The notes under the pieces are model-generated. The model was not told the origin of the DNA. It worked only from the letters and a program-made list of their open reading frames with translations, and made no database searches. Of a stretch of DNA of 64,000 nt, positions 27,306-51,069 are shown piece after piece (position 1 is the first letter of the stretch; every line of letters begins with the position of its first letter). Origin of the DNA: a virus; IMG/VR virus record IMGVR_UViG_3300030616_000016, positions 70,561 to 134,560 of that record. The stretch is one strand, 5' to 3'. A program made the position numbers and the translations under genes.

Positions 27306-27428
27306 GACTACCTCTTTCTGTTTAATAATGGTTGTAATGAATAGGAAAGTCTCTGGTAAGGCAAAAGGATGAAGAGCACGAGGGCTCTTTGGGGGAAGTC
27401 GAAAATTCTCACCAGAGACGGGATATAT

Positions 27429-28220
27429 TTAGAAATCAGTTGATTTTGCGGTTCTCATACCGCGAGCCATCATTTCTTTCACAAAGTCTTCTCCAAGACT
27501 TTCGAAGGTCGCTACATTTGAAGTTGTATCTTCAATTAATACAAACTTCTTAATATTCTCATCGCCGAAGTTATCAGCAATGTCTCTTACTGTATTTGCA
27601 ACACAGTGTGACAGAGCTTCTCCAGTTATGAGAATATCGTCTGCTTCCAGTAGGCTATCAAGAAGATTGCCATTAAGTCTTGTAGTAGGGTCAGACGGGT
27701 CTTCTACATCGGCTTTTACTGCTGAGTAGTGTTCTGTAAAAGGATTAGACCCTTTAGTAACATAGTCAATCATAGCAAACTGATTTTCCCACTCAGTTAT
27801 TGCTTCGAACACATTAGCATCGATTGAATGTCCTTGCGAACCAATAAGACAATGTGGCCGCCAGATGCAGAGAACATATCTGCCATTGTCTTCAAGTGTT
27901 TTTGTATAATCTGAAGCTTTCTGTTGAAGAGCTGGGTTATAGGAATGCCAGACACCATTTTTTACATCATCATGGGATATTACTGTAAATGGGTTTGGAT
28001 GTTTACCATCTTTATCAACCCAGAATATAGGATGTGCAATATGAATGGTTCTGTGAGAATCCATTGTAATATGGATATCATCTAATCCGTCTTTCATTCT
28101 GTTGACCATTTCTGCAAGACGTTTCATATCCTCATCTGCTCTAGGAACAACTAGGGCTCCTTTTGGATTACAGAAGTCATATTGAGGATCAATAGCAAGA
28201 AGATGAGTTTTCTTGTTCAT
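27429..28220 (-). CDS. isochorismatase-family cysteine hydrolase, nicotinamidase (PncA)-like
   Basis: LLAIDPQYDFCNPKGALVVP (PncA N-terminal D...DF) and LITGEALSHCVANTVRD (catalytic Cys motif). Confidence 0.65.
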   Translation of the reverse strand: MNKKTHLLAIDPQYDFCNPKGALVVPRADEDMKRLAEMVNRMKDGLDDIHITMDSHRTIHIAHPIFWVDKDGKHPNPFTVISHDDVKNGVWHSYNPALQQKASDYTKTLEDNGRYVLCIWRPHCLIGSQGHSIDANVFEAITEWENQFAMIDYVTKGSNPFTEHYSAVKADVEDPSDPTTRLNGNLLDSLLEADDILITGEALSHCVANTVRDIADNFGDENIKKFVLIEDTTSNVATFESLGEDFVKEMMARGMRTAKSTDF

Positions 28221-28239
28221 AATTGCTGACCTTTCTTAG

Positions 28240-29895
28240 TTATTTTTTAATACTGATAGAGAACATTTCTTTATCCTCTGTAAAGTATACACTGGTACCA
28301 TCAGTGTATAGTGGCATTGATGAGTCTATCGGCGGATTAGTAATAATGCGTTTTTGATTATCTTTAGAGATCTCAATCTTTTGATCGCTAAATACATCAA
28401 TGCAAACTCCATTATTAAGAACAATGAAATTGATATTATCAACATCGCGCTCTTCTTTGTCTAGCAGAATACCTTTATTTTCTTTGCTGCATAGTTTGAA
28501 TCGGAATCTATAATATTTACCAGATTCTTCTGCTATGCATACTAGAATTCCTCTGCTATGTTTTGCATTGATTATTCTAAGTCCATGGAGTTCCTCAATA
28601 GGACCTAGAAAACTACCAGAATCTTCTAATGGCGCATATGCCCAACATTTGTCTAGGAAGTTGCTAATTACTACTCCACTAAACATTTGATTCATAGTAC
28701 CAAGATTTTGGGATGGATTCGAGCATGCCGCGCTCTTATTCCCCATATTTTTTGCATATACCTCATATACTGAGGCGCCGTTTCTGCAAAATATACTACC
28801 ATTGTATATCATGGCTTTGTCTGCGGCAAATTTACCTGGTATATCCGTTTCTATTTCTACACAGCCATTATCAATTATGCCTAACACAGGGTCAGGAGAT
28901 AGATTGCATAGAAATGCCTTTTTATTGGATATATCCTTAAATATGGATTTACCACAGTATATTGCCTTATCCGTAAATGTATAGAAAATACCATTTAGGA
29001 ATTGTATTGATTTAATCGGCTCATTGTACTTATACATTGATTTAATGTCAAAATTTGCTGTGCTTCTTATAGTCTTTTGAACCATAGCTATATTAATTGT
29101 AGCGTCAGGTTTAGGTGGAGCGCTGCGTTTATTCTCAATGAATATTGACTTAAACCACTCCATATGAGCTTTAGGAATAACTGAGAAGTCTTGACATACG
29201 GATGGAATGGTAACCTTACTATCAAATACGGATATACCATCATCCATTCGCTTAGTAAATTCTCTTGGTTTATAGTCTGGGTGTTTACCCTTATAAGGAT
29301 GGATACCAACATAAAGCTGAAATGCTATTACTGCAAACGAGAACCAATCGCTTAGTTCTGTGAACTTTTTGGCTAAGCGGTCTCTTATTGAATCCATAAT
29401 AGCATTAGCTGGAAATGACTTTGTCTGATAACTGTCAACGTCAATAAAGTAAGGTACTTTATGACCTTTGTCTATCAGAAAGTTCATTTCATTCATATCT
29501 ACTATCAGGCATTGTTTAGAATGAATGTGCTCGACCGTGTCTTGTATATTGCGCACAATTTCTAATACTTGATTAGGAGATATATTATTATCTTTTCTGT
29601 ACTGCTTAGTAAAGAGCTTGCATAGAGCACTTGTCTCTTTAATATACTTCATTGTATATCCGATGACATTGCTTGTCTTTTTATCGCAAACAATATCTTC
29701 CGGTTTGATAACATTGCCGGCTGTTATATAGCCAAGCTCTTCAATCTTTCTTAATGGTATCATATGCTTGATATCATTATAAATCTTGAAGGCAATATTG
29801 TCTTTTTTATATACAGAACCTTGACCACCAGATGCAATAAAATCATTGTCTTTCAGGTCAAATGAAGCCTTTGTTCTATTTACAATGACTCTCAT
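28240..29895 (-). CDS. Hanks-type Ser/Thr protein kinase with a C-terminal beta-rich domain
   Basis: Gly loop GGQGSVY, AFKIY (VAIK), catalytic loop HSKQCLIVDMNEMNFLI, and DVDSY (DFG-like). Confidence 0.7.
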   Translation of the reverse strand: MRVIVNRTKASFDLKDNDFIASGGQGSVYKKDNIAFKIYNDIKHMIPLRKIEELGYITAGNVIKPEDIVCDKKTSNVIGYTMKYIKETSALCKLFTKQYRKDNNISPNQVLEIVRNIQDTVEHIHSKQCLIVDMNEMNFLIDKGHKVPYFIDVDSYQTKSFPANAIMDSIRDRLAKKFTELSDWFSFAVIAFQLYVGIHPYKGKHPDYKPREFTKRMDDGISVFDSKVTIPSVCQDFSVIPKAHMEWFKSIFIENKRSAPPKPDATINIAMVQKTIRSTANFDIKSMYKYNEPIKSIQFLNGIFYTFTDKAIYCGKSIFKDISNKKAFLCNLSPDPVLGIIDNGCVEIETDIPGKFAADKAMIYNGSIFCRNGASVYEVYAKNMGNKSAACSNPSQNLGTMNQMFSGVVISNFLDKCWAYAPLEDSGSFLGPIEELHGLRIINAKHSRGILVCIAEESGKYYRFRFKLCSKENKGILLDKEERDVDNINFIVLNNGVCIDVFSDQKIEISKDNQKRIITNPPIDSSMPLYTDGTSVYFTEDKEMFSISIKK

Positions 29896-30731
29896 GGCTT
29901 ATCCTTAAGCAGTGTAGCACATGCTATATCATCAAAGTGCTTATTGTTTATTTTGGAATCCATGATGCGTATTTTCTTCATTCTTCTTTTTACAAACTCT
30001 CCTTTGAAGGTTTTATATACAGTCATTCGTATAGCGTTATCAAGCACACTTGTATTTTCAAAAGAGCTTATACCATCAGTGAACAGGCTTATGCTCATTC
30101 CTTCTGCCATTGGCGCACTAGACATTATGTATGGCTCGAACATGGGGATTGTAGAGCTCTTAAAGTCTTCGTCTGGGTTATATGACAATACTGTTTTTTC
30201 TGGATTGCCCAATATATCCATAGTATTCATATAGTCTTTAATCTTTTCATCTTCCATGCGATATGCAAGATAGTATGGCATGTTAGATGTATATGATATT
30301 TCTTCAATACGAATCCATGGATTTGGGTCATTCGCTCTATCAAAACCATCATTAAAGACAACTACTCCATCTCCCCATACTGCTATGCCAAATCCCTCAT
30401 TATTGGCTATTACTACCATAAGCGTGGCATAGAATGTCTGGATGTCAAGACAAAGAGCTATTGCTACTTTTGATAGCGCTCCCAACACTTTATTTTCAAA
30501 TGAACAAAGAGCAGTTGATAATGTCTTGTGTCCAAACATAACTATTGAGCTTCTTAATGCTTGTTCTGCAGCAATTCCAAGTATTTTTGCACCAAGGTCT
30601 GTGTTTTGTGCAGAAGAACAGCCGTCACAGACGATACCATAGGAATAACCATAGATATCGCCTGTGATAGCATAATCTTCACACATATCATGACTGGCAC
30701 CAATTTCTACAAAACTATCTTTCTGTATCAT
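29892..30731 (-). CDS. PP2C-family Ser/Thr phosphatase
   Basis: GASHDMCEDYAI ... GIVCDGCSS ... DGVVVFNDG are the PP2C metal-binding Asp motifs. Confidence 0.65.
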   Translation of the reverse strand: MIQKDSFVEIGASHDMCEDYAITGDIYGYSYGIVCDGCSSAQNTDLGAKILGIAAEQALRSSIVMFGHKTLSTALCSFENKVLGALSKVAIALCLDIQTFYATLMVVIANNEGFGIAVWGDGVVVFNDGFDRANDPNPWIRIEEISYTSNMPYYLAYRMEDEKIKDYMNTMDILGNPEKTVLSYNPDEDFKSSTIPMFEPYIMSSAPMAEGMSISLFTDGISSFENTSVLDNAIRMTVYKTFKGEFVKRRMKKIRIMDSKINNKHFDDIACATLLKDKP

Positions 30732-30747
30732 TGGTACTCCCAGTCAT

Positions 30748-31497
30748 TTAGAAGTTAAGAATTGAAGATGCCGAGCCGGATCCAAGAGACTGTGATTGTG
30801 AGGATATGCTTTGACTCACAAATTCAGCCAGCTTTGCAAGCTTGGATGGAGTAGCTTCTCCGACAGATACGTATTTATCAAGGTTTGCATTATCCTTGAA
30901 TGTAGTCAAGAAATTCTTGACTGCAGGATCTTTATCAATCCCGATAAGAACCGTAATAATTGATTCGAGGCTTTCTTCTCTTGTGATATCATCTACTAAC
31001 GTAGCAACTTGTACTGGCGCATTATTTGATTGATTATCAGCGCCATCTGTAATGATAAATACAATTGCATTTGTTAGGAGATCTACTTTATCATACATCT
31101 GCTTGCTATACTGATGTGTTGCTTCGATGCCTTCATATGTTGCATCAAATAATGCAGTTGTACCGCCTGTACGGATGATATTAGAGTATTCATCATCACT
31201 AATATCACTTAGGAGGCGGAAACCATGCATTTCGTTCAGATTAGCATTGAATGTAGTGAAGCGAACCATTAAGTTTTCTGCACGTGGAGACTTTTTGCAT
31301 GATTCGATTACAGTTTTCAGCATATCCTCAATATCATCTTTGTATGGAGACACTGAAGAAGATACGTCGATAATAATTGAAACGAGTGTATATTCAGAAG
31401 CACCTAGTTCATCAAGCTTTACAGCACTGAATCTGAAGTTTGATGCAGTCTGCATACTGGTTATGTTTGCAAGATCTTTATCCATTAATCTTGGCAT
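30748..31497 (-). CDS. von Willebrand factor A (vWA, TerY-like) domain protein
   Basis: MIDAS: IIIDVSSSV (DxSxS), GGTTAL, FIITDGADN. Confidence 0.75.
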   Translation of the reverse strand: MPRLMDKDLANITSMQTASNFRFSAVKLDELGASEYTLVSIIIDVSSSVSPYKDDIEDMLKTVIESCKKSPRAENLMVRFTTFNANLNEMHGFRLLSDISDDEYSNIIRTGGTTALFDATYEGIEATHQYSKQMYDKVDLLTNAIVFIITDGADNQSNNAPVQVATLVDDITREESLESIITVLIGIDKDPAVKNFLTTFKDNANLDKYVSVGEATPSKLAKLAEFVSQSISSQSQSLGSGSASSILNF

Positions 31498-31499
31498 GG

Positions 31500-32486
31500 T
31501 TATTTCCTTTCTTTGTTAAGCCTGTTTCCTTCTCCTAAATGCATAAGGGGAAGCGGTTTAGGGCTATCACCATTTAGGAAGTATACCTTGGTAGCCGGGT
31601 CTTTTGTAATTGTACCTAGTGCTTTAAGTGCTTCAAGCTGGATATATGCAGGATTATTTGCAATAGCATCGTTAACTTTCTGAATTTCATATGCTTTTGC
31701 GTCTGCAAGGATCTTCTGTTTTTCTGCTGAAAGCATTGCGGCGTCTTTATCTGCCTGAGCAGTTTTAACTTTCTTCTGCTGTTCAGTCTCAAACCTGCGC
31801 AACTCTGCTTTCTCACGTTCAGCTTCCTGCTCGCGTTTCTTCTTACTCTCAACACCTTGCTGGATTGTGTTGGGAAGTTGAATATTTCTAATGAGAACAG
31901 CTTCAACATCAAGGCCCTTTGGTGCAACGTATTCTTTAATTGAAGTAAGAAGATTTGCCTGCATCTTTTGCTGAATTTCTTCCCTAAAGAATGACTCTGC
32001 AGTTTTCACACTTTTACCTTGTTCTCGCAATAAGCTTCGGAACTTGGGTAACATGTGTACTTCCATAAGGTCTTTAGGATTACCGGTTTCTTGCAGAATG
32101 TCTGGAGCCATAGACTTGATAATTCGATACTGACAGCTTACATCGAATGTCGTAACAAGCTGGTCCATACTTGGGATGGGAACCTGGCTCATTGTAATAC
32201 TTTTCTGACGACAATCGAATTCTTCCCAATCATACAAAGGATTGGTAAGGTGAATGCCTGCTTCATAGGGCTGATCAACGACTTTACCAAAGAATGTAGC
32301 TACTCCAATATGTCCTGGAGGTATTGAGATAACACATGAAGCGATGAGAGTAATAGCGCCGACGGCTCCTACCAGTAGACCGCCAAGAATATAAGGACGC
32401 CTTTTTTCTTCTGATTTAGCCATAAGACCATATACAAACACCAACAAACCGATTAATGCAATTATAATACCAAGAGCAAGTATCAT
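31500..32486 (-). CDS. SPFH/band-7 (stomatin/flotillin-like) membrane protein with coiled-coil C-terminus
   Basis: N-terminal TM helices followed by an SPFH core (GHIGVATFFGKVVD...), then EQQKKVKTAQADKDAAML coiled coil. Confidence 0.7.
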   Translation of the reverse strand: MILALGIIIALIGLLVFVYGLMAKSEEKRRPYILGGLLVGAVGAITLIASCVISIPPGHIGVATFFGKVVDQPYEAGIHLTNPLYDWEEFDCRQKSITMSQVPIPSMDQLVTTFDVSCQYRIIKSMAPDILQETGNPKDLMEVHMLPKFRSLLREQGKSVKTAESFFREEIQQKMQANLLTSIKEYVAPKGLDVEAVLIRNIQLPNTIQQGVESKKKREQEAEREKAELRRFETEQQKKVKTAQADKDAAMLSAEKQKILADAKAYEIQKVNDAIANNPAYIQLEALKALGTITKDPATKVYFLNGDSPKPLPLMHLGEGNRLNKERK

Positions 32487-33887: not shown

Positions 33888-35558
33888 TTAGTTTATAAGG
33901 CAAAACAGATACTTCTGAATTCTGTCACTGCCTGTTGCATATTCGTCTATCAGGCGATATAAGAGCTTGTCCCAGCCTTTAGATAGCATCAACTGCATTA
34001 CAGTGATGTATATCCTTGTTCCAGACCTCTTACCACTATTTGCATATATTCCATCATCAGATAGCTTACGACTGCATGCATGAGTATTTGTCTGGTGGCT
34101 GAACTTATCTAATACTATCCAGAACACTTTCCCAGACCATGCCTCAACTGTCTGTCCGTTATAAGTATGCTTTTGTGGCTTGCATTCTTTTATAAGAGCA
34201 GATGGTATATTCCCATCTTCTCCTTCTAGAAAGTGAGGAACGGGCGCCGGCCCTGATTCCTCTGCAATATTATTAAGCATAGCTTCTACTATCTGACCTG
34301 GATTCCTACGCTTTAGAGTTGCAAGAGCGTTGGTTACCACTTCTGCTGGTTTGCCATCTATCTTAGGCATTTGCTCGTCTGGTATAATATTTACTATACC
34401 TTTATTACCGTGACGATTTGTAATTTTGTCGCCACTTCTGAGAATATGAAATCTCTCGTATTCGACAATAAGTTTTGTACAAACTGTGTTTGCTACTTTT
34501 GTTCTTATCTCACTGATATTAGACAGTTTAGCTTCACGCTTGACATGACATTTAAGCGTGATTGTTTCTTCTCCATCAGAATAAGAACCAATTATCTGAT
34601 TTGGTCTTACAATGTCTCCGGCTTTGGCTTCCATCTTTAGGCTTTGTTTGCACCATCCTGGTACTACGAATGTCTGTTTCTCAGGAATGACACATGTCAT
34701 TTTTCTAGCTGCTGACTTACTCATAACAATCTGTTCTTTGTATACACCAGGCATGATTGCATGAACTGTAAGTAAGTGCTTGCCATTAAGATTGTTATCA
34801 TAATCTTCTGGAAACACCATAGGTTTATCTGGACTAACTAGCTTGCTGGAAGCCTTGAAATTAGATGCAGTGGTTCTGCGGCGATTATATTCTGGTACAA
34901 TAAGATTCTTATTGAGTATATCGCAATAAACCCGACCTCTTTTGGTGAAGCATCCAATATCGTTTATTTTGCATTCTTCAGCCATGTACATTGTGCGACC
35001 ACAATTCCCCGATGACTGACTTATACTTGTCCAATCAAGAATGCCTTCTGTATTGAATGGCATAAATTCATCCGTTCGTTCTTGAAATAGCTCTAATGAT
35101 ATTTTGGGTCCATAGTGAGTAGCTATTCCCTTTACGACATGAGATAATCTTGAAGTTTTAAGTAAATTATCGAGCTTCATTTGAGCTGTGGTAGAATCTT
35201 CTTGATGTCCGAACATAAAGAAGTCTGACAGTTGTGTAGCATATGCTTGCTTAATGAATTTAAGAAGAAGCTCGTATGGTGTTGATAAATATGTGTGATT
35301 AATATTCATACATCTGTTATTAAAGATTGGCATTGGATTAAGTGTATAGCATAATTGCCGGCTTATTCCATTTACAGAAAACATACCCTTGTTATCAATC
35401 TTAGGTATATTTAGTTTTACGACTGTTTGCATGCTCTGGGATGCCTCTTTAACAAGCATTTTTGTATGAAATAGGTCATCATATTCTTCTATATGACAGT
35501 CAACAGGCAAACAATTACATATAGGAAACAATCTTGCAAGATGAGACTTATTCATCAT
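33888..35558 (-). CDS. multisubunit RNA polymerase beta-subunit-like protein (C-terminal module of beta)
   Basis: GDKITNRHGNKGIVNIIPDEQMPKIDGKPAEVVTNALA aligns with RpoB GDKMAGRHGNKGVVS...; the GKVFWIVLDKFSHQTNTHACSRK region matches the RpoB C-terminal conserved block. Confidence 0.8.
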   Translation of the reverse strand: MMNKSHLARLFPICNCLPVDCHIEEYDDLFHTKMLVKEASQSMQTVVKLNIPKIDNKGMFSVNGISRQLCYTLNPMPIFNNRCMNINHTYLSTPYELLLKFIKQAYATQLSDFFMFGHQEDSTTAQMKLDNLLKTSRLSHVVKGIATHYGPKISLELFQERTDEFMPFNTEGILDWTSISQSSGNCGRTMYMAEECKINDIGCFTKRGRVYCDILNKNLIVPEYNRRRTTASNFKASSKLVSPDKPMVFPEDYDNNLNGKHLLTVHAIMPGVYKEQIVMSKSAARKMTCVIPEKQTFVVPGWCKQSLKMEAKAGDIVRPNQIIGSYSDGEETITLKCHVKREAKLSNISEIRTKVANTVCTKLIVEYERFHILRSGDKITNRHGNKGIVNIIPDEQMPKIDGKPAEVVTNALATLKRRNPGQIVEAMLNNIAEESGPAPVPHFLEGEDGNIPSALIKECKPQKHTYNGQTVEAWSGKVFWIVLDKFSHQTNTHACSRKLSDDGIYANSGKRSGTRIYITVMQLMLSKGWDKLLYRLIDEYATGSDRIQKYLFCLIN

Positions 35559-37074
35559 TATCTTTCTCCAATACTAGGACTCTGTCCCTGAGATACTTGA
35601 TGAGTTGATTTTTGTCTTCGTTATTCAGTACATTCATGATGTGTTCTATGGCTAGAGTATAGAAAGCGTCGCCTTCTACCATGCTTAGTCTAGGATCAAA
35701 CACTGCATAGAATATAGAATTCTCTGCGTCTACTATATCATTAATTAACTTAGGGTTATCCCTATTATATAGTAGATTAAGATATGGCTCGACTTGTTCT
35801 ACGTCTATCTCACAATCTTTAAGTATTTCGCGAGCTACGTTTATGTCGCTAATACCATCATTTTTAAGTACTTTAATGAGACTGACATATGATTCATCAA
35901 GTTTATGTTTAGAATCAAATAGGCGCTGGTTTGCTTGTTCTGATAGCTTATCTGCAGCTTTGGCTATTTCTATATTGCCATCTGCCAATACTCTTGCACG
36001 ACATGCTGCGGCTCCAGCCTTGCCAATCTCTGATTTCTGGAGAATGAGGCCTTTTGCAACCTTGATGTCGTCTTCTCGTATTTCAGATAAGGACTTGCCT
36101 TTAAAGAATCCTGTAAGGTCCTTAACGTCAATGTCTTCTGCATTACACATGGCTTTTATTGTCTCAGAATTTTCTGTGTCAATAAGGTCATGTGGTCCAA
36201 TTACTCTGAATTTTGAGATTCTTTTTACACCATCATCTATTATGTTTTCCAAGTCAGGGGTTTCTTCTTGATTATCGATAAGAAACTCTTTGTCCCACTT
36301 TGTTGTGGACCAGTCTTCTTCTATATCAATATCAGGATACCCAAGTACTGTTTCAATTAGATCTCCATCGGAATCAGCACCCATGCCATCAGTAATAATG
36401 GGATGAATAATGATCCTGTTGGATTTAGTAGGAAGTATGTATAACTTGCGCATAGAATCGTTGTGTAGCAAGGGATTTCTGAATGCAATTACATAAGGCT
36501 TCCCTTCTGTATTGGACTCTTCTTTCCTTTCTTTCCACTTTTCTATGAACTTGACATATATATGCTGAGGTAATTTTATGTGGTCATAAGGCATTCTGAA
36601 GTCGGTAGCAATATGGCCTTTACCAGAATATAATGCTCTGAAACCAAGGATATATGTATTAAACAATCCTGATTTACCGACCAGCTCTTTAGCCATTATT
36701 TTCCATACTCTTTCAGCACTATCTTCCACTACTTCTGTGTCAATATTGCCAATACCAAGTTGGCTAATTGACACAAGTAGTTTTTCTGTAGCGATTTGTA
36801 TATCATTTAATACTATGTGCCCGGCTACTGGTCCTGGCATATTCATATTAGGGATTATTACTTTTTGAACCTTCTTGCCGAAGTAATTATTTATTTCAAT
36901 CGGCAAGTGTACATACCCGCCATACTGAAGTACATCTTCATCAAGTATGGTGTTTTTGAGGTTCTTATTAAGTAAATCCGGTTTTGAAATGATCGCTTTT
37001 GTTGTATTCGAAAATAGATTTCTTCGTATCTGTATATTACCACACTGTTTCGATAAACTCGTCAGATTCATCAT
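35548..37074 (-). CDS. multisubunit RNA polymerase beta'-subunit-like protein (catalytic N-terminal module)
   Basis: VIAFRNPLLHNDSMRKLYILP (NRQPSLH-like) and IITDGMGADSDGDLIE (NADFDGD catalytic loop variant). Confidence 0.75.
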   Translation of the reverse strand: MMNLTSLSKQCGNIQIRRNLFSNTTKAIISKPDLLNKNLKNTILDEDVLQYGGYVHLPIEINNYFGKKVQKVIIPNMNMPGPVAGHIVLNDIQIATEKLLVSISQLGIGNIDTEVVEDSAERVWKIMAKELVGKSGLFNTYILGFRALYSGKGHIATDFRMPYDHIKLPQHIYVKFIEKWKERKEESNTEGKPYVIAFRNPLLHNDSMRKLYILPTKSNRIIIHPIITDGMGADSDGDLIETVLGYPDIDIEEDWSTTKWDKEFLIDNQEETPDLENIIDDGVKRISKFRVIGPHDLIDTENSETIKAMCNAEDIDVKDLTGFFKGKSLSEIREDDIKVAKGLILQKSEIGKAGAAACRARVLADGNIEIAKAADKLSEQANQRLFDSKHKLDESYVSLIKVLKNDGISDINVAREILKDCEIDVEQVEPYLNLLYNRDNPKLINDIVDAENSIFYAVFDPRLSMVEGDAFYTLAIEHIMNVLNNEDKNQLIKYLRDRVLVLEKDNDE

Positions 37075-43009: not shown

Positions 43010-44020
43010 TTACCAAGGCCAGTTAGGGACCTCGATCTTATGAACATGTTTCAAGTGATCGAATGCATAAGGCTGGAAAGGCGCTTCGACGCCATAATGA
43101 GCACGATAAGCAACTTCCCACCAGTGAGACAGGAATATCTTAGTAGCCCATCTCTTACTTCTCATATGAATCTGACTATTGGGGAGCTTGCCTTCGCGAT
43201 ATATTGCCCTCTGTTTATGACCAGGCACTCTTCGAAGAACTTCTCGTGCAATATGCGCATATTCCTTGGCTTCATTCTTACGCGACTCGATAATCTTCCT
43301 TTCAACAACAAGATGTCCATAGAGATCTTTTGGATTGTTGCATGTCATATTGAAAGACTCACCGATTTTCCAGCAGAGTGTTTTCAGTTCTGAATTCCAG
43401 GGACGCATTGACAGACCTCTGTAAAGCGTCTTGCCTGTATGAACTCCGCCTCCTTTCTGTAATGAGAGACGAAGTGCGGTAGCTGCTTTGATTCCTCCGG
43501 CTTCTTGTATCGCATTTGCTACCTTAATAGCATCTTCTTCAGATACTCTTCTTGTACTATCAGGATTAATACCGGCTTCGTCAACCATGATTTCTCTTGT
43601 AACTTTCTTGCCAAGCCAGCGCTTTCCGTCTACAAGACCAGCATAGCTATAGATATGTCCTGGAGTCTTAGCTTTGTCCATATCTATATGGGCAATAAGA
43701 CCGGCGCTGATAACAGGGCCAATACCTACAACTGATTGAGCCCATGTACCAATTTTTGTTGATAATGAGAAATGATTGAGCGCGAGCTTCACCTGATTCT
43801 CAAGACGCTCCGCATTCTTAAGAAACCAATCAAGCACTTCCATTGGAGGGTCGTCTACGCCCTGCTCTGCTGCTCTAAGCTGACCAGCAAGCCTGATTCT
43901 CTGGTTCTGCATGGTATAATAACTATCTACCAGATAGCGGGCTTCCTGACGCGTAATCTTTCTTGACGCGTTTCTTATGTCTTTACCTACTCTTTCAATA
44001 ATTTCTTCAATAGCCATCAC
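43010..44020 (-). CDS. hypothetical Trp-rich protein (336 aa) with a Transposase_20-like helix-hairpin-helix motif; locally GC-rich
   Basis: VVGIGPVISAGLIAHIDMDKAKTPGHIYSYAGLV resembles the IS110-family C-terminal HhH (PGIG..tA..L.A...D..RF.s...L.sYAGL). No DEDD N-terminal domain was recognised. Confidence 0.45.
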   Translation of the reverse strand: MMAIEEIIERVGKDIRNASRKITRQEARYLVDSYYTMQNQRIRLAGQLRAAEQGVDDPPMEVLDWFLKNAERLENQVKLALNHFSLSTKIGTWAQSVVGIGPVISAGLIAHIDMDKAKTPGHIYSYAGLVDGKRWLGKKVTREIMVDEAGINPDSTRRVSEEDAIKVANAIQEAGGIKAATALRLSLQKGGGVHTGKTLYRGLSMRPWNSELKTLCWKIGESFNMTCNNPKDLYGHLVVERKIIESRKNEAKEYAHIAREVLRRVPGHKQRAIYREGKLPNSQIHMRSKRWATKIFLSHWWEVAYRAHYGVEAPFQPYAFDHLKHVHKIEVPNWPW

Positions 44021-44038: not shown

Positions 44039-45196
44039 TTAAAGCATGTTTACCATGCTATTATATAGACCCGCATACTCTTGCGGGCCTGAACGTTTGC
44101 CTGGGTTATCGGACAATTTAACAGTAGGAACAAAGCCCTCTCTATTATATGAACAGGCAGTCATTTTAATAACGATATTAAGAGGATCTACTCCAACATC
44201 ATTAGTGAAATTAGTGCCTATACCATATACTGTTTTGATTCTTTTGTTTACATATTCTTCTATCTCAAGAACCTTGTCAACATCAAGAGAGTCTGAGAAT
44301 ACAATGGTTTTTGTACTTGGATCTATACCAAGGCTCTCATAGTGTTTTATTATTTTGTCAGCAAATTCCATAGGATCGCCTGAATCTTGCCTTACACCAT
44401 CCCAAAGACTCGCTCTGACATAATCAAATGATCTTAGAAACCAATCAGTTGTATAAGTATCAGTAAGCGCTATGCCTAGTTTGCCCTTATATGTCTCTGC
44501 CCATTTATCAAGGGCAATAGAAGTAGCCATTTGAGGACCAAATATGGCGCCGTGGAACATAAACCACTCATGAGCTTGTGTGCCAATTGGTCGCATGTTA
44601 TGAGTGGTTGCTAATAATACATTACTTGTACCAAGACAGTATTGTGAAATTTGTTTTCTTGTAGACATGTCATCCAGAAGTTCATTCTGTACACCAAATG
44701 AAAATCTGCGTCTGGTTCCGAATTCTATGAAGTTGACTTTGTGCTTGATGAGTTTGTCAACCTTGTCTACATTTGTTTTATATCTTTCTTTCCTGAACTT
44801 AGGCGCTATACCAAGCTTAAGATAGTATAGCTCGCTAATAGCCGCTAATAGCGGTACTTCCCATAGTATAGCAGAATACCATGGCCCGCATATTTCTACT
44901 TTGAGATCTTCGTCTGTTTGTGTAACACATACTTCATTAGGATTGAATCGATGATGTCGTAGGTATTCTAGATATGTTGAATCAAAGACTCCAATCTTTC
45001 GCATAGCTGTAATACTATCGTCTATAAAGTATGTATGTTGCATATGATCAATAAACTCATTTAATTCCTTTTGCATACTTTCAGGGAACTCAGTCTTTGT
45101 TCTTGACTTGAATTCATATTTTACTAATGCAGATGGATAGTGTTTAAGTACTGCATTTTGCATGGCGAACTTATAGAAATCATTGTCTGCTGCCAT
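44039..45196 (-). CDS. pncB: nicotinate phosphoribosyltransferase (NAPRTase, PncB-type)
   Basis: FIEFGTRRRFS, LGTSNVLLA and VRQDSGDP signatures of the NaPRTase family. Confidence 0.8.
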   Translation of the reverse strand: MAADNDFYKFAMQNAVLKHYPSALVKYEFKSRTKTEFPESMQKELNEFIDHMQHTYFIDDSITAMRKIGVFDSTYLEYLRHHRFNPNEVCVTQTDEDLKVEICGPWYSAILWEVPLLAAISELYYLKLGIAPKFRKERYKTNVDKVDKLIKHKVNFIEFGTRRRFSFGVQNELLDDMSTRKQISQYCLGTSNVLLATTHNMRPIGTQAHEWFMFHGAIFGPQMATSIALDKWAETYKGKLGIALTDTYTTDWFLRSFDYVRASLWDGVRQDSGDPMEFADKIIKHYESLGIDPSTKTIVFSDSLDVDKVLEIEEYVNKRIKTVYGIGTNFTNDVGVDPLNIVIKMTACSYNREGFVPTVKLSDNPGKRSGPQEYAGLYNSMVNML

Positions 45197-45219: not shown

Positions 45220-45702
45220 TTAATATATAGCATCTAATCCTTCACCTGCACGAAATATTTCTGCCTTTTCTATGGCTTCTAATAAACCCTTACATTCACA
45301 ACCGCAATGTATACATATTGCTAATTCTTTTGGATCTACTCGATCTTTCTTATTCAAAAGCTCATTGTTAAATTCTCTGGATCCACAGTAATTACATTGT
45401 GCTCTAAATACTTCTTCAAGTAACCAAGTAGAAATACCCTCTTTCCCTGTTGTGCATGTATGTTCTGGCTCCATACTTGTCAGATGGATATAATCATTTG
45501 GATAAGTTATAGTTTCTGTTCTTATAACTCTATGAAAATATCCAATACATTTCCTTAGTTGTTCTCGATAATCGCTATCTGGGCCAAGATCATCTGCTAT
45601 TTCATATGGTAATAGAATTTCTCCAACATTATATGTTTCCATGACTACTCCATCCCGATGGTATCTATGAAGTATTGTCCATCTCTTAATAATGTCACAC
45701 AA
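45220..45702 (-). CDS. hypothetical Cys-rich protein (160 aa)
   Basis: C-terminus has CNYCGS...CIHCGCEC. Confidence 0.4.
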   Translation of the reverse strand: MCDIIKRWTILHRYHRDGVVMETYNVGEILLPYEIADDLGPDSDYREQLRKCIGYFHRVIRTETITYPNDYIHLTSMEPEHTCTTGKEGISTWLLEEVFRAQCNYCGSREFNNELLNKKDRVDPKELAICIHCGCECKGLLEAIEKAEIFRAGEGLDAIY

Positions 45703-46327: not shown

Positions 46328-46669
46328 TCAATTGACTGATTTGGATCCACAGTTTGGACATTCAAATAAGAGTTTAATATCATAGCCACAATAAAAGCAT
46401 TGATTATACGGCTCAAGATATTTTATAGTATTGACTGTATTAATAGTTGTGCCAAGTGCGACATTGCTATTAGGGTTTAGAGTGGCATTAGAAAGCTGAA
46501 ACATATTCCATTTTAATCTTTTAGTTATATATACATTGTGCTTATGAGTCCAATTGTATATATAATTCCTATGTACATCGGAAATATCTTCGTTACAAGT
46601 AAGTATGTTCTTGTGATATCTGACGCGTATGTGTCGCTTCATTACTTTTGCGGCTTCTCTATATTTCAT
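46328..46669 (-). CDS. member of the small zinc-ribbon paralog family (C-terminal CFYCG...CPNCGS)
   Basis: Shared N-terminal MKYREAAKV-type start and a C-terminal CxxCG-x8-CxNCG. Confidence 0.5.
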   Translation of the reverse strand: MKYREAAKVMKRHIRVRYHKNILTCNEDISDVHRNYIYNWTHKHNVYITKRLKWNMFQLSNATLNPNSNVALGTTINTVNTIKYLEPYNQCFYCGYDIKLLFECPNCGSKSVN

Positions 46670-46910: not shown

Positions 46911-47153
46911 TCAACCCCCATTGTTGTCTCCATCTACATGATGATTTTTGCAAATTCTTACCTTGTGTCCTTGATAGTCAATTTCTTTTGTATCCGCCAT
47001 GGCATTCAATCTGCCACAAATAATACATCTTCCAACTGACTTTCTCTTTTCAGCTATTTTATTGCCCAGCAATGCTTTACTATCATTATTTTTGCTCATA
47101 AAAATTCTCCTATTGGTTATGTTGTTGTCTGATAACATTAAGGAATGCATCAA
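46911..47153 (-). CDS. small zinc-binding hypothetical protein (80 aa)
   Basis: CIICG...H..VRICKNHH. Confidence 0.35.
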   Translation of the reverse strand: MMHSLMLSDNNITNRRIFMSKNNDSKALLGNKIAEKRKSVGRCIICGRLNAMADTKEIDYQGHKVRICKNHHVDGDNNGG

Positions 47154-47439
47154 TTCTATCAGAAGGTCTTTTGCGCAATTCTTGAATATAAATCGCGCGT
47201 CTTTTGGTAAGATTATCTATCCTCTCTTTTAGTTTCACTTCTTTCCTTGAAATATAAAACTTTCTTACTATTGGTGATAGAACAAACCATCTACTCTTTA
47301 GTTTTTCGTACTTTACTTTCAATAGCCATATTTCATCATTTAAATTGTTTATGGCAATAGATAAATCAGCACCTGACATTTTTGGAATAAGGTTAGTTTT
47401 CATGCTCTCTCCATATTTCATAATAATGTAGAGCCGCAT
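47110..47439 (-). CDS. hypothetical coiled-coil protein (109 aa)
   Basis: minus-strand ORF. Confidence 0.35.
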   Translation of the reverse strand: MRLYIIMKYGESMKTNLIPKMSGADLSIAINNLNDEIWLLKVKYEKLKSRWFVLSPIVRKFYISRKEVKLKERIDNLTKRRAIYIQELRKRPSDRIDAFLNVIRQQHNQ

Positions 47440-47777
47440 AAATCACAAATCTTCTGCTCTATATTAATATCTTTATTCCCACAAAATGGACATAATGCTA
47501 AATGAATGTTCTGAATGTCTGTTGATGTTAATGCTGCTGTATGCCAATAAGAGTCTATGACTATTGATTTATACTCCATGTGTATTCTAGATATTTTGAT
47601 ACTCTTGTTTGCTATAGTATTTGGAAGCCTGCATTGATACATTGTTGTACCATCTCCTTTATCATATATAGCACCATTAATAAGAGGAGAGTTTTCATCT
47701 TGTACATAAATTACAGACCATTGGTTTTCGTATGCAATAACACATTCTTCATAGGTCATTATGATACTCTCCTTCAA
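47418..47777 (-). CDS. zinc-ribbon paralog family member (LCPFCGNKDINIEQKICDLCGS)
   Basis: family signature. Confidence 0.5.
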   Translation of the reverse strand: MKESIIMTYEECVIAYENQWSVIYVQDENSPLINGAIYDKGDGTTMYQCRLPNTIANKSIKISRIHMEYKSIVIDSYWHTAALTSTDIQNIHLALCPFCGNKDINIEQKICDLCGSTLL

Positions 47778-47784
47778 TAATCAA

Positions 47785-48108
47785 TTAGTATTCTATAATG
47801 ACTTCTGGCTGTTTATACTCATTTGTATCTTTGTTAGTTTTAACCGGCGGCAAGACATTAATGATCCTACCATATGTGTCTTTTACTGTGCGGCTCGCTT
47901 CAAATTCTTCTTGTGTTAGTTCATTGGGATTGCCATACTGTTTGACCCATCCATTATATAGCTGCTTAGCATTTCTTTCTCTTTTTTGTATGATGCTTTT
48001 GCTGCTTCTAAATGTACATATAATCATTGATGAAAGTATGCAGATTATCGCTAATAGTACTACTAATTCAATAAAGGCAAACCCTTTATTACACTTTAAT
48101 ATTTTCAT
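47785..48108 (-). CDS. prepilin-type N-terminal cleavage/methylation domain protein (ComGC-like pseudopilin, 107 aa)
   Basis: MKILKCNK-GFAFIELVVLLAIICIL is a basic leader followed by G|F, Glu at +5 and a hydrophobic helix, i.e. a class III signal peptide. Confidence 0.6.
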   Translation of the reverse strand: MKILKCNKGFAFIELVVLLAIICILSSMIICTFRSSKSIIQKRERNAKQLYNGWVKQYGNPNELTQEEFEASRTVKDTYGRIINVLPPVKTNKDTNEYKQPEVIIEY

Positions 48109-48119
48109 GATATCTCCTG

Positions 48120-48488
48120 TTAGTCAATGTACCCATTTTTCTTAAAGCTAACTAATACTATCTTATTTTTCTCGCGATCATGTTGAAGCTTGATGTATAC
48201 TTTGGTATTACCTATTACTGTTTTGTATACATCCATATATTTTCTTACGTATAGATTTGCTTTTGTTGCATAAGCAAAATCTGGCTCTTTTAAGTTGAGC
48301 AGAGTTTCTACAACTTGGCTTTTTGAAAAGCTAAAGTCTTTTTGCGCATGATATCTCGCATCTCTTAATATCATATATCTATCATTCTTAATGAGAGTTT
48401 TTGCGCCTTCTAACTCAATAGAAGGCATGGCTCTCCTTTTTATGACAGGGAGATCTATGTCATTATTATTTGCTAAAGATACTTTCAC
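48120..48488 (-). CDS. hypothetical protein (122 aa)
   Basis: minus-strand ORF. Confidence 0.45.
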   Translation of the reverse strand: MKVSLANNNDIDLPVIKRRAMPSIELEGAKTLIKNDRYMILRDARYHAQKDFSFSKSQVVETLLNLKEPDFAYATKANLYVRKYMDVYKTVIGNTKVYIKLQHDREKNKIVLVSFKKNGYID

Positions 48489-48516: not shown

Positions 48517-48912
48517 TCATGGTAGTTCTGAATCGCAGCCGCAATTATTGCAAGCCTTATGCTTAATGTCTATATCTTGATTACCGCAATATTTGCATCT
48601 TATTACTTCAAGATCCTCAATTGATACATTTAGGTATAGAATTGTTTCTCCATCTGATACTGCAAATCCGCCTACATTCTCTGAATTTATCACATTAAGT
48701 TCATCTTTTACTATATCGACTCCTACAATATTTAGTGTCTTACCACGAAATATATCCACATAACAAGGCCCACAAATTGATGATTGTGAGACACAACCAT
48801 TTTCATCTATGTCAGCATGTCTTGCAGTTAAATTATATTCTTCATGTTCACCTATATTTAAGAATACAGGTGTTTTGTTAATATATGCCCGAACTGCCTC
48901 TTTGAACGTCAT
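48517..48912 (-). CDS. zinc-ribbon paralog family member (RCKYCGNQDIDIKHKACNNCGCDSELP)
   Basis: family signature; N-terminal MTFKEAVRAY. Confidence 0.5.
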   Translation of the reverse strand: MTFKEAVRAYINKTPVFLNIGEHEEYNLTARHADIDENGCVSQSSICGPCYVDIFRGKTLNIVGVDIVKDELNVINSENVGGFAVSDGETILYLNVSIEDLEVIRCKYCGNQDIDIKHKACNNCGCDSELP

Positions 48913-49036: not shown

Positions 49037-49381
49037 TTATTTCGCTTCACGGACATCAATCCCAAGTTTGTCTTTAATCCACTTTGCAACAAGATGTCTG
49101 TGACAAAACTTCGTTGATCCTTCCCAGCATAATAGTATGGGTTCGCCGTCTACTAGCTCATGAATTTCATCATAAACTTCAGCGGCATTTAATTTACTTA
49201 GAATCTTGTCGTATTCTCGTACATAGGCTATTTTATCCAAGTTTCTTCTATAGGACTGTAATAATTCTTGTGATGGAGCTAATGTACGATATGTTGAGCC
49301 TATATAGAATTTTGGAGGAAATAGCGCTATAGACACTGCATCTGGATGAGTACCATAATTTCTGAAGTATGAAGTTTTCAA
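49037..49381 (-). CDS. DUF488-like protein
   Basis: ILLCWEGSTKFCHRHLVAKWI matches the LLC.E....CHR motif of DUF488. Confidence 0.4.
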   Translation of the reverse strand: MKTSYFRNYGTHPDAVSIALFPPKFYIGSTYRTLAPSQELLQSYRRNLDKIAYVREYDKILSKLNAAEVYDEIHELVDGEPILLCWEGSTKFCHRHLVAKWIKDKLGIDVREAK

Positions 49382-50295: not shown

Positions 50296-51069
50296 TTACT
50301 CCCTTTCTAGACAGAATGTCTCCATCATGTGATTTTGAACTCCTCTGTATTGCCATTGAAAAGTACAATTGACTCCCTTAATCTTAGGAAACTCTCCAAC
50401 ATTTCTATCTTGTATTTTGCTATTTCTTGAGTCACTCTGAATAGTTATGAAAATTAACTTACAATCGCTTTTGTTCACGAGATGTTTGACTGAAGATATT
50501 CTTTGATGCGTTAGTGGACCATTATAATCTAAGTGTGCTACATCAATGTCTATACGACTACATTTCTTGAGAAATGAATCGACATTCTGGTTTATCAGTT
50601 TTACATCCTTACTTAGCTTGCTCTTTATCGAGTTTTCGCAGATTGTATATATACTGTTTTTCGCCTCAAAGGCTAGAATGTTGTATGTATCTACTCCAAC
50701 CATGTTATTAATTATTACTAATTCAGTTCCTAGGTATGGTAGACATAGAAATTTGATGCTTCTTAGTCCTTTTGAGTGAATAATATTGCCTATGCTAGTA
50801 ATGCTATACCGCTTACCTATTGTGGCATATTTATCATTATTAGCGTCAATATTATTCTTTTTCTTAATGATTGGAAGGTTGGTTCTAACTTTTGTTTTGA
50901 TGTTATGCAAATGTGTCTCAACAGTTCTTGGCTTTATATCAAGCTTAGCTGATATTTGAGGAATAGAAAGACCACGCATGAATAGATCAACATGTTCTTT
51001 TTCTCTCTTTGTAAACAAATGCTTTTTATTAGAGACATCTGACGGCAAATGAACTTTTGTCCTATTCAT
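50296..51069 (-). CDS. LuxR/FixJ-type HTH protein (N-terminal HTH) with a C-terminal domain of unknown function
   Basis: LFTKREKEHVDLFMRGLSIPQISAKLDIKPRTVETHLHNIKTKV matches the LuxR-type HTH. Confidence 0.5.
   Translation of the reverse strand: MNRTKVHLPSDVSNKKHLFTKREKEHVDLFMRGLSIPQISAKLDIKPRTVETHLHNIKTKVRTNLPIIKKKNNIDANNDKYATIGKRYSITSIGNIIHSKGLRSIKFLCLPYLGTELVIINNMVGVDTYNILAFEAKNSIYTICENSIKSKLSKDVKLINQNVDSFLKKCSRIDIDVAHLDYNGPLTHQRISSVKHLVNKSDCKLIFITIQSDSRNSKIQDRNVGEFPKIKGVNCTFQWQYRGVQNHMMETFCLERE

What the first reader, a model, noticed from the sequence alone, without database searches (positions are those of the whole stretch)
47785..48108. ComGC-like pseudopilin (class III signal peptide) encoded by the phage
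The leader MKILKCNK followed by GFAFIE and a hydrophobic helix is the prepilin peptidase substrate motif of competence or type IV pseudopilins of Gram-positive bacteria. A phage-borne pseudopilin could cap or poison the host Com or T4P apparatus, which many phages use as a receptor, giving superinfection exclusion, or it could block DNA uptake.
Basis: partly seen in the sequence, partly recalled or inferred. Interest (0 to 1): 0.5.

Follow-up and report, generated by a model that had tools for sequence, protein, structure and literature searches.

The report
Phage-encoded miniature type IV pilin-like protein
A small gene in a very large phage-like genome encodes a miniature pilin-like membrane protein; it belongs to an unnamed family found on phage-like contigs that probably acts on the host's pilus or secretion machinery, though its function is untested.

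Summary
ORF 47785..48108 (- strand, 107 aa, strong Shine-Dalgarno site) starts MKILKCNK-G|FAFIE followed by 19 hydrophobic residues. That is a class III (prepilin) signal with Gly-1, Phe+1 and Glu+5. This motif occurs nowhere else in about 3.5 million six-frame residues scanned. Every significant family hit is to a pilin or pseudopilin N-terminus, but all score below the curated cut-offs.

The rest of the protein is not ComGC. It carries a conserved head, W54-x-K56-x-x-G59-N60-P61-x-x-L64-T65-x-x-E68-F69. This head defines an unnamed family of at least 65 small proteins (62-136 aa), found only on metagenomic phage-like contigs. No Pfam, PHROG or NCBIfam model covers it, and it has no match in GenBank phages.

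About 13-17 members keep a cleavable-looking prepilin signal, and several of these pass curated thresholds. About 16 more keep only Glu+5, at a fixed distance from the conserved Trp. The rest have plain membrane anchors. The family therefore looks pilin-derived, with repeated decay of the signal.

Function is inferred, not shown. The likeliest role is interference with the host's type IV filament machinery, for example superinfection exclusion. The host is unknown, so the Gram-positive/ComGC assignment is unsupported.

The parts
47785..48108 (-). Complete ORF, 107 aa: mini pilin-like protein
   Evidence: the ORF listing. The identical protein was called on ENA contig ERZ27252234 k141_1275754.
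48114..48118 (-). Shine-Dalgarno AGGAG, 5 nt before the ATG and 1 nt after the TAA stop of the upstream gene
   Evidence: Read directly from the sequence.
48082..48108 (-). Leader peptide MKILKCNKG (residues 1-9), basic, ending in Gly-1; the predicted prepilin-peptidase cleavage site follows it
   Evidence: Sequence. Aligns with the leaders of geopilin and PilA. Cleavage itself is inferred.
48010..48081 (-). Hydrophobic alpha1-N segment FAFIELVVLLAIICILSSMIICTF (residues 10-33) with Phe+1 and Glu+5 (codon 48067-48069)
   Evidence: AF2 predicts a helix over residues 8-58 with pLDDT about 90.
47902..47961 (-). Conserved head motif LYNGWVKQYGNPNELTQEEF (residues 50-69). Invariant in all 65 aligned sequences: W54, K56, N60, L64, E68. 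G59 is nearly invariant; P61, T65 and F69 are invariant in the smaller alignments.
   Evidence: Alignments A1-A4.
47839..47853 (-). LPPVK (residues 86-90), a C-terminal motif shared with the nearest subgroup (P0004, P0005, P0008, P0012, P0013)
   Evidence: Alignment A2.

Best explanation
The ORF encodes a miniature type IV pilin-like (pseudopilin-like) protein of a phage-like element.

Shown:
- It has a class III signal: a basic 9-residue leader, Gly-1, Phe+1, Glu+5 and a hydrophobic alpha1-N segment.
- It has a predicted lollipop shape: one long helix (residues 8-58) carrying a very small head (helix 66-73 plus a short hairpin).
- It belongs to an unnamed family defined by the head motif W-x-K-[QE]-[YT]-G-N-P-x-x-L-T-x-x-E-[FW]. 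All family members seen lie on phage-like contigs.
- The family's N-terminal consensus is the pilin consensus (G/A | F/W-T-L-I-E-V-V-I-V-V-A-I-I-A/G-L-L-A).

Inferred:
- The protein inserts N-in/C-out into the host cytoplasmic membrane.
- The host prepilin peptidase (PilD/ComC/GspO type) removes the leader.
- Through alpha1-N and Glu5 the protein engages the host type IV filament machinery (type IV pilus, T2SS pseudopilus or competence pilus). It acts there as an altered or non-productive subunit, or as a competitor for the peptidase or platform.
- This changes or blocks the filament. The most probable benefit is exclusion of pilus-dependent competitor phages from an already infected cell.

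The conserved small head is the functional surface. Its binding partner is unknown.
For: - Class III signal. It is unique among about 3.5 M six-frame residues scanned.
- Family: HMMER against 1.84 billion representatives and two profile searches give 65 aligned members with invariant W54, K56, N60, L64, E68.
- Pilin ancestry of the family: precomputed PF07963 hits for P0016, P0023, P0027, P0051. JGI names P0051 'prepilin-type...' and P0065 'PilV'. The L105 protein scores 26.3 bits on TIGR02532 against a cut-off of 16.3. TIGR02532 matches 7 members, the ComGC model 8 and the GspG model 7.
- Glu lies exactly 33 residues before the conserved Trp in 24 members listed, and 40 residues before it in the query and P0009. 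The column consensus of those 24 equals the pilin consensus.
- Members with and without the signal are interleaved at 80-95% head identity.
- Structure: AF2 with the family alignment gives pLDDT 80.5, helix 8-58 and a small head.
- Topology: 39 of 65 members have more K+R on the N-terminal flank of the membrane segment, against 16 with more on the C-terminal flank. P0004 has a lipobox-like signal.
- Phage accessory context: L107 has integrase, excisionase-like HTH, this gene, then an Acb2/Tad1-like gene. L002 has Acb2/Tad1 and Sequestin nearby. L007 has KilA-N and Lar. L108 has a terminase next door.
- Precedent: prophage FimU mimics and truncated PilA of lytic phages (PMC12952977). Minor:major pilin stoichiometry controls pilus dynamics (PMC13249403).
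Against: - Curated thresholds for the prepilin domain are narrowly missed by this member (TIGR02532 14.2 vs 16.3; PF07963 17.3 vs 21.2). Ala+2, Phe+3, Cys+14 and Cys+22 replace the usual Thr/Ser, Leu, Gly14 and Pro22.
- About half of the family (27-32 of 65) have plain membrane anchors with no Glu+5. This includes all eight nearest relatives of the query, none of which hits a pilin model. Pilin processing therefore cannot be essential for the family's core function.
- The charge balance around the query's own membrane segment is ambiguous: more K+R on the C-terminal flank.
- No prepilin peptidase or pilus-assembly gene was seen in the 76 kb of the contig examined. That is expected if host enzymes are used.
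- The host, and hence its pilus repertoire, is unknown.
Confidence: 0.4

Rival explanations
1. A generic membrane-anchored effector. The conserved WxKQ[YT]GNP..LT..E[FW] head does the work at the outer face of the membrane, on a target unrelated to pili. Candidate targets include another receptor, the cell-wall or envelope machinery, or DNA entry by a competing phage. The pilin-type N-terminus would be an evolutionary leftover that now serves only as a signal-anchor.
For: - The head is invariant, while the class III signal is absent in roughly half of the family and in all the nearest relatives of the query.
- Anchors are interchangeable: plain transmembrane segments, long N-terminal extensions, and a lipobox-like signal in P0004.
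- The genes sit in accessory or early regions, where superinfection-exclusion and anti-defence genes are typical.
Against: - Glu+5 is retained at a fixed register in 24-26 members. A charged residue inside a membrane helix is costly unless it is used.
- Fully canonical, threshold-passing signals persist in several lineages.
- The query keeps Gly-1, Phe+1 and Glu+5 together although its nearest relatives have lost them.
Confidence: 0.3
2. A virus-specified filament subunit. The protein is polymerised by the host machinery into its own pilus or pseudopilus, as with the pilins of the archaeal provirus SNJ2, and so changes host adhesion, motility or receptor display.
For: - It has the complete class III signal and a long alpha1 helix.
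- There is precedent for viral pilins that hijack host secretion machinery (PMC12426801).
Against: - The head is very small.
- Gly14 and Pro22, typical of filament-forming major pilins, are absent (sequence; for the family).
- Many family members cannot be cleaved.
- The phage appears to be large and probably lytic, which leaves little time for filament-based benefits. This last point is an inference.
Confidence: 0.08
3. A lysis-timing or envelope-disruption component (holin, antiholin or spanin-like bitopic membrane protein).
For: It is a small single-pass membrane protein of a phage with an extracytoplasmic C-terminal domain.
Against: - No endolysin, holin or spanin family was detected among the neighbours tested in the window or in the related loci.
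- Neighbours are not conserved between loci.
- The pilin consensus of the N-terminus is unexplained by this model.
Confidence: 0.07
4. A partner (antitoxin or modulator) of the MqsR-like toxin gene that ends 11 nt upstream.
For: - The upstream ORF 48120..48488 matches PF15723 MqsR_toxin (E 1.2e-10, above the cut-off).
- In mqsRA operons the antitoxin gene follows the toxin gene (established knowledge).
- The two genes are almost certainly co-transcribed.
Against: - The protein is a membrane protein with no zinc-binding or HTH domain.
- None of the other family loci has an MqsR-like or any other conserved neighbour.
Confidence: 0.03
5. A chance motif in a random membrane helix, or a non-coding ORF.
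For: The curated HMM thresholds are not reached by this sequence.
Against: - There were zero other matches in about 3.5 M six-frame residues.
- All significant profile hits are to pilins.
- Homologues are conserved, and many have canonical signals in the same register.
- The gene has a strong SD site.
Confidence: 0.01

Closest known systems
Prophage-encoded FimU mimics (P-FimU) of F10-like Pseudomonas phages (PMC12952977)
   Same: Both are phage-encoded proteins with a type IV pilin N-terminus that rely on host pilus machinery. The proposed benefit, exclusion of pilus-binding competitor phages, is the same.
   Different: P-FimU proteins are full-size homologues of a specific host minor pilin and are functional in twitching. 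The protein here shares only the N-terminal about 40 residues with any pilin. It has a novel head of about 50 residues, sits in a probable jumbo lytic phage, and has relatives that have lost the cleavage site.
Truncated PilA-like proteins (about 60 aa) of lytic Pseudomonas phages (PMC12952977, section read)
   Same: Both are very small pilin-like proteins of non-temperate phages, consisting essentially of alpha1. They have been suggested either to incorporate into pili or to block assembly.
   Different: Those proteins are recognisable PilA fragments. The family here has its own conserved head motif and no match in GenBank phage genomes.
Pilins PilA1/PilA2 of the haloarchaeal provirus SNJ2 (PMC12426801)
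   Same: Both are virus-encoded class III signal proteins that use host processing and assembly machinery.
   Different: The SNJ2 pilins are archaeal and full-size, assemble into dominant surface filaments and serve as receptor for another virus. No filament formation is indicated here.
ComGC / ComGE competence pilins of Gram-positive bacteria
   Same: Similar size (about 100 aa), a short basic leader, the G|F...E motif and a small head.
   Different: Model scores are far below the cut-offs (ComGC 18.2 vs 75; ComGE 25.2 vs 49) and cover the N-terminus only. There is no comG operon context, and the head motif is unrelated.
T2SS minor pseudopilin GspH
   Same: This is the best-scoring NCBIfam model (26.5 bits, residues 8-50).
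   Different: The cut-off is 80 bits. Only alpha1 aligns, and there is no gsp context.
Non-pilin phage inhibitors of type IV pili (e.g. Pf phage PfsE; PMC8764522, title and abstract seen)
   Same: Both are small phage proteins whose role is to shut down the pilus and so prevent superinfection.
   Different: By the title and abstract of PMC8764522, PfsE inhibits type IV pili; from my own knowledge such inhibitors bind pilus machine components and are not pilin mimics. The protein here looks like a substrate or subunit of the machine.

Membership tests
Prepilin-type (class III signal) N-terminal cleavage/methylation domain proteins (TIGR02532 / PF07963) | Short basic leader ending in Gly at -1 | tested here: met
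   The leader is MKILKCNKG; the Gly9 codon is 48084..48082.
Prepilin-type (class III signal) N-terminal cleavage/methylation domain proteins (TIGR02532 / PF07963) | Hydrophobic +1 (usually Phe) and Glu at +5, followed by about 20 hydrophobic residues | tested here: met
   F10, E14 and residues 15-33 (mean Kyte-Doolittle hydropathy 2.98 over the 14 residues after Glu+5).
Prepilin-type (class III signal) N-terminal cleavage/methylation domain proteins (TIGR02532 / PF07963) | Score at or above the curated model cut-off | tested here: not met
   TIGR02532 scores 14.2 bits against 16.3; PF07963 scores 17.3 against 21.2. Family relatives do pass: the L105 protein scores 26.3 bits, and P0016, P0023, P0027 and P0051 have precomputed PF07963 hits.
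Prepilin-type (class III signal) N-terminal cleavage/methylation domain proteins (TIGR02532 / PF07963) | Cleavage and N-methylation by a prepilin peptidase | not testable with these tools
   This needs expression with PilD/ComC and mass spectrometry. No Peptidase_A24 gene was seen in contig positions 87250-163564, so a host enzyme would be required.
ComGC competence major pilin (NF040999) | Full-length match at or above the cut-off (75 bits) | tested here: not met
   The score is 18.2 bits, over residues 8-47 only.
ComGC competence major pilin (NF040999) | Encoded in a comG operon of a Gram-positive host | tested here: not met
   The gene lies in a phage-like contig between an MqsR-like gene and a zinc-ribbon ORF. 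The host is unknown.
T2SS minor pseudopilin GspH (TIGR01708) | Full-length match at or above the cut-off (80 bits) | tested here: not met
   The score is 26.5 bits, over residues 8-50 only.
Phage pilin mimics of the P-FimU / P-PilA type (PMC12952977) | Sequence or structural similarity to a host pilin over the whole length | tested here: not met
Phage pilin mimics of the P-FimU / P-PilA type (PMC12952977) | Encoded by a phage and blocks adsorption of pilus-binding phages | tested here: inconclusive
   A phage-like origin is supported. The phenotype cannot be tested here.
Unnamed phage 'WxKQ[YT]GNP' mini-pilin family (defined here) | Single N-terminal membrane helix followed by W-x-K-x-x-G-N-P-x-x-L-T-x-x-E-[FW]; length 62-136 aa; encoded on phage-like contigs | tested here: met
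   The query has W54, K56, G59, N60, P61, L64, T65, E68 and F69. W54, K56, N60, L64 and E68 are invariant in the 65-sequence alignment. Profile E-value is 6e-21.
MqsA-type antitoxin | Zinc-binding N-terminal domain plus an HTH DNA-binding domain | tested here: not met
   No such domains were detected, and the protein is a membrane protein.

The most novel reading that the evidence does not exclude
The WxKQ[YT]GNP proteins could be a previously unrecognised, phage-specific class of decoy subunits for type IV filament machines. In this reading, cleavable members enter the pilus, pseudopilus or competence pilus. Members that have lost Gly-1 but kept Glu5 act as dominant-negative, uncleavable 'prepilins' that dock on the growing filament base or on the peptidase/platform and stall it. 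The repeated loss of the cleavage site would then be an adaptive switch from altering the pilus to killing it. That would give phages a portable, single-gene way to shut down pili, type II secretion or DNA uptake in many hosts.
Probability: 0.25. Interest if true: 0.7.

Novelty: new variant of a known kind. Interest (0 to 1): 0.5.

Why it matters
Virus-encoded pilin mimics have only just been shown to act as anti-phage (superinfection exclusion) devices (PMC12952977), or as hijackers of host secretion machinery (PMC12426801).

This gene exposes a separate, unnamed family of at least 65 very small pilin-derived proteins, found on metagenomic phage-like contigs. The family has a conserved head that no database model describes. 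It also contains a natural series running from canonical prepilin signal, through Glu5-only, to a plain anchor.

If these proteins target type IV filament machines, they would be compact single-gene tools for switching off pili, type II secretion or competence. The natural series would show which parts of a pilin N-terminus are needed for that. If they do not, the family is still a clear case of a pilin N-terminus reused as a membrane anchor for a new phage effector domain.

Tried and rejected
1. Chimera hypothesis (pilin N-terminus fused onto a non-pilin phage ectodomain). I held this, because the eight nearest homologues have plain anchors. I dropped it when the wider profile search showed many members with canonical signals and Glu in a fixed register.
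3. Host identification.
   - megablast and tblastn against GenBank phages found no close relative.
   - The UvrD-like helicase is about 27% identical to proteins of Firmicutes jumbo phages.
   - The best TnpB genome hits are Methanosarcina at 53%, which is not diagnostic.
   - The host remains unknown.
4. Conserved neighbours. An all-against-all BLASTP of the flanking genes of eight family loci found none. The MqsR adjacency is unique to this window.
5. Lysis-cassette idea. PHROG scans of the neighbours found only a terminase, a 'protease' family and unknowns.
6. Defence-system models (PADLOC) gave nothing for the ORF or its immediate neighbours.
7. The promoter and terminator scan was no different from shuffles.
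8. GenBank phage search with family members P0027 and a consensus head peptide found no match. IMG/VR holds only four contigs with the family.
9. A weak profile hit to the QoxA/CyoA C-terminal segment (E 0.034) was judged a short-motif resemblance only.

Full report
**Observation.** It has an ATG start and an AGGAG Shine-Dalgarno site 5 nt upstream. The upstream gene's TAA stop lies 11 nt before the ATG.

The product starts MKILKCNK-G|FAFIE-LVVLLAIICILSSMIICTF. This is a short basic leader, Gly at -1, Phe at +1, Glu at +5 and a 24-residue hydrophobic segment, which is the class III (prepilin) signal.

A strict regular expression for the motif plus a hydrophobic tail finds only this site. It was run on:
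- all six frames of the window;
- 492 kb of every locus held at that point;
- 1.25 Mb of unrelated IMG/VR viral DNA.

Together these are about 3.5 million six-frame residues, so chance is excluded.

Profile searches hit only pilin or pseudopilin N-termini: GspH 5.6e-6, ComGE 1.3e-5, PpdD, ComGF, PilA, ComGC, GspG, TIGR02532 and Pfam N_methyl. PDB sequence search gives geopilin, PilE1 and PilA N-termini. Every score is below the curated cut-off. TIGR02532 (14.2 vs 16.3 bits) and PF07963 (17.3 vs 21.2 bits) miss narrowly. The reason is that Ala+2, Phe+3, Cys+14 and Cys+22 replace the usual Thr/Ser, Leu, Gly and Pro.

**What carries the gene.** The identical protein is called on one ENA metagenome contig of 231.6 kb, ERZ27252234 k141_1275754. 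All genes in the window are on one strand. They include:
- a fragment of a phage-type multisubunit RNA polymerase beta subunit;
- UvrD- and DEAD-type helicases, RecA and RuvC;
- a reverse transcriptase;
- a TnpB gene;
- NAPRTase;
- a kinase/PP2C phosphatase pair.

The 336-aa gene at 43010..44020 has 94 relatives in IMG/VR. There is no nucleotide match in GenBank phages, and the best protein matches are only about 27% identical. A very divergent jumbo phage is therefore the best reading. I saw no structural genes in the 76 kb I could annotate, so 'phage' remains an inference.

The host is unknown. Helicase hits lean towards phages of Firmicutes. TnpB hits lean towards Methanosarcina at 53% identity. 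Neither is diagnostic. The GC content of the ORF (0.33) equals that of its flanks, so nothing suggests recent acquisition.

**The rest of the protein.** A word-indexed search found only the protein itself. A full HMMER scan of 1.84 billion representatives found small proteins sharing residues about 45-95. Profile iteration and a metagenome scan then raised the family to 65 aligned members of 62-136 aa (median 82).
- Invariant positions in the 65-sequence alignment are W54, K56, N60, L64 and E68.
- G59 is nearly invariant.
- P61, T65 and F69 are invariant in the smaller alignments.
- The motif is W-x-K-[QE]-[YT]-G-N-P-x-x-L-T-x-x-E-[FW], followed in many members by a short hydrophobic strand and a Pro-rich end (LPPVK in the query).

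No Pfam, NCBIfam, PHROG or PADLOC model covers this head. GenBank phages have no match.

AF2 with the family alignment gives pLDDT 80.5: helix 8-58, a turn at YGNP, helix 66-73 and a small hairpin. The shape is a lollipop like a pilin, with a tiny head. Fold searches were uninformative because the long helix dominates.

**Is the pilin N-terminus an accident of this member?** At first it seemed so. None of the eight nearest homologues hits any pilin model, and I noted the protein as a chimera. The wider family overturns that reading.
- P0023 (MNEMKQG|FSIIE), P0027 (MKRG|FTMVE), P0034, P0051 and P0065 have textbook signals.
- P0016, P0023, P0027 and P0051 carry precomputed PF07963 hits.
- JGI names P0051 a prepilin-type protein and P0065 'PilV'.
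- The L105 protein scores 26.3 bits on TIGR02532, above the cut-off.
- Across the 65 members, TIGR02532 matches 7, the ComGC model 8 and the GspG model 7.

Register is the strongest evidence. One search lists 24 members with Glu exactly 33 residues before the conserved Trp; the position tally in the same call counts 26. The query and P0009 have Glu 40 residues before it. The column consensus of those 24 sequences is G/A | F/W-T-L-I-E-V-V-I-V-V-A-I-I-A/G-L-L-A, which is the type IV pilin consensus.

Classification of the 65 members:

| N-terminal class | Members |
|---|---|
| Cleavable-looking signal | about 13-17 |
| Glu+5 only | about 16-18 |
| Plain membrane anchor | 27-32 |

The classes are interleaved among relatives whose heads are 80-95% identical. 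The family is therefore pilin-derived, and the signal has decayed repeatedly. The query is a member that keeps all three key residues.

**Context.** Every family locus I could inspect is phage-like:
- integrase, excisionase-like HTH, this gene, then an Acb2/Tad1-like gene (L107);
- Acb2/Tad1 and Sequestin nearby (L002);
- KilA-N and Lar (L007);
- DnaB and a terminase next door (L108);
- long runs of small unknown ORFs.

No neighbour is conserved, so this is a stand-alone accessory gene. No pilus-assembly or peptidase A24 gene was seen in contig positions 87250-163564.

In the window, the upstream gene is a clear MqsR-family toxin homologue. That adjacency is unique to this phage, and the pilin-like protein has none of the features of an MqsA antitoxin.

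**Mechanism.** Shown: the class III signal, the family, its pilin ancestry, the predicted shape and the phage accessory context.

Inferred, in order:
1. The protein inserts N-in/C-out. The family majority follows the positive-inside rule (39 vs 16), and one member has a lipobox-like signal. The query's own charge balance is ambiguous.
2. A host prepilin peptidase cleaves after Gly9.
3. Alpha1-N and Glu5 engage a host type IV filament machine (type IV pilus, type II secretion pseudopilus or competence pilus).
4. The filament is altered or blocked as a result.

The most probable pay-off is exclusion of pilus-dependent competitor phages. This has been shown for prophage FimU mimics and proposed for 60-aa PilA fragments of lytic phages (PMC12952977). 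Pilus dynamics are known to depend on minor:major pilin stoichiometry (PMC13249403), which makes an extra pilin-like subunit a plausible lever.

I put this chain at about 0.4.

The main rival, at 0.3, is that the head acts on a target unrelated to pili and the N-terminus is now only an anchor. Loss of the signal in about half of the family supports this rival. Retention of Glu5 in a fixed register, and of fully canonical signals in several lineages, speaks against it.

Lesser rivals:
- a virus-specified filament, as in provirus SNJ2 (PMC12426801);
- a lysis component;
- an MqsR partner;
- chance.

**Comparison and novelty.** The protein works like, and is built like, a minimal pilin or pseudopilin. 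It is not a member of ComGC, ComGE, GspH or any named pilin family, because full-length criteria were tested and not met. It also narrowly misses the curated generic prepilin-domain thresholds that several of its relatives pass.

The closest known systems are phage pilin mimics (P-FimU, P-PilA, truncated PilA) and the SNJ2 pilins. It differs from them in three ways:
- its head is new and conserved, not that of a host pilin;
- it has a family-wide pattern of signal decay;
- it occurs in a probable jumbo phage.

I rate it a new variant of a known kind, with interest 0.5. It is not a surprise in principle after the 2025-2026 papers. It is, however, an undescribed family that offers a ready experimental series.

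Noticed in passing
window 48120..48488 (-): The gene immediately upstream of the finding is an MqsR-family toxin homologue (PF15723, E 1.2e-10, above the cut-off). No MqsA-like antitoxin is recognisable beside it. It may be a solitary phage RNase for host shut-off, or a toxin with a non-canonical partner.
   Followed up: partly
window 48517..48912, 47418..47777, 46328..46669, 46911..47153, 45220..45702 (all -): Small ORFs with C-terminal CxxC...CxxC zinc ribbons cluster around the finding. The two that flank the MqsR/mini-pilin pair are paralogues (BLASTP 8e-8). The pair therefore sits between duplicated genes.
   Followed up: partly
window 878..2026 (-) and 1983..3107 (-): A reverse transcriptase (RVT_1) gene overlaps the end of a RecA homologue. 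It could be a group II intron, retron or DGR-type RT in a phage.
   Followed up: no
window 21900..23117 (-): A TnpB / IS605 OrfB (Cas12f-like TNB domain) gene lies inside the phage-like genome. Its best genomic relatives are Methanosarcina copies at about 53% identity.
   Followed up: partly
window 26301..32486 (-): This is a block of envelope- and signalling-type genes. It contains Peptidase_S41 with a lipobox-like N-terminus, a faint Ser/Thr kinase match with a PP2C phosphatase, and a Band_7 protein with two N-terminal membrane segments.
   Followed up: no
window 33888..35558 (-) and 35548..37074 (-): There is a fragment of a multisubunit RNA polymerase beta subunit (RNA_pol_Rpb2_6), distantly like those of PBS1/AR9-type jumbo phages. 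The adjacent 508-aa ORF has no match in GenBank phages.
   Followed up: partly
window 44039..45196 (-): A nicotinate phosphoribosyltransferase (NAPRTase) gene. This is an NAD+ salvage enzyme, as reported for jumbo phages (title and abstract of PMC11662467, seen).
   Followed up: no
window 49037..49381 (-) and 50296..51069 (-): A DUF488 protein matches the PADLOC candidate model PDC-M45C (4.5e-10), and a GerE/LuxR-type HTH protein is also present.
   Followed up: no
window 43010..44020 (-): A 336-aa protein of unknown function has 94 relatives in IMG/VR viral contigs at 30-52% identity. It is a widespread phage gene with no Pfam hit.
   Followed up: no
P0070 (188 aa): This distant family member has a pilin-type N-terminus (MKAHRFSLIELLVVIAIISILAGMLLPAL) and two tandem copies of the TGNPK..L..(D/E)F head motif. 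The head can therefore be duplicated on a single pilin stalk.
   Followed up: no
Family profile A4 vs PDB 6kob_B: The head motif weakly resembles the extracytoplasmic C-terminal segment of quinol oxidase subunit II ('FNSWVKKTQNEAPKLTKEKYDEL', E 0.034). This is probably only a short helix-turn-helix resemblance.
   Followed up: no
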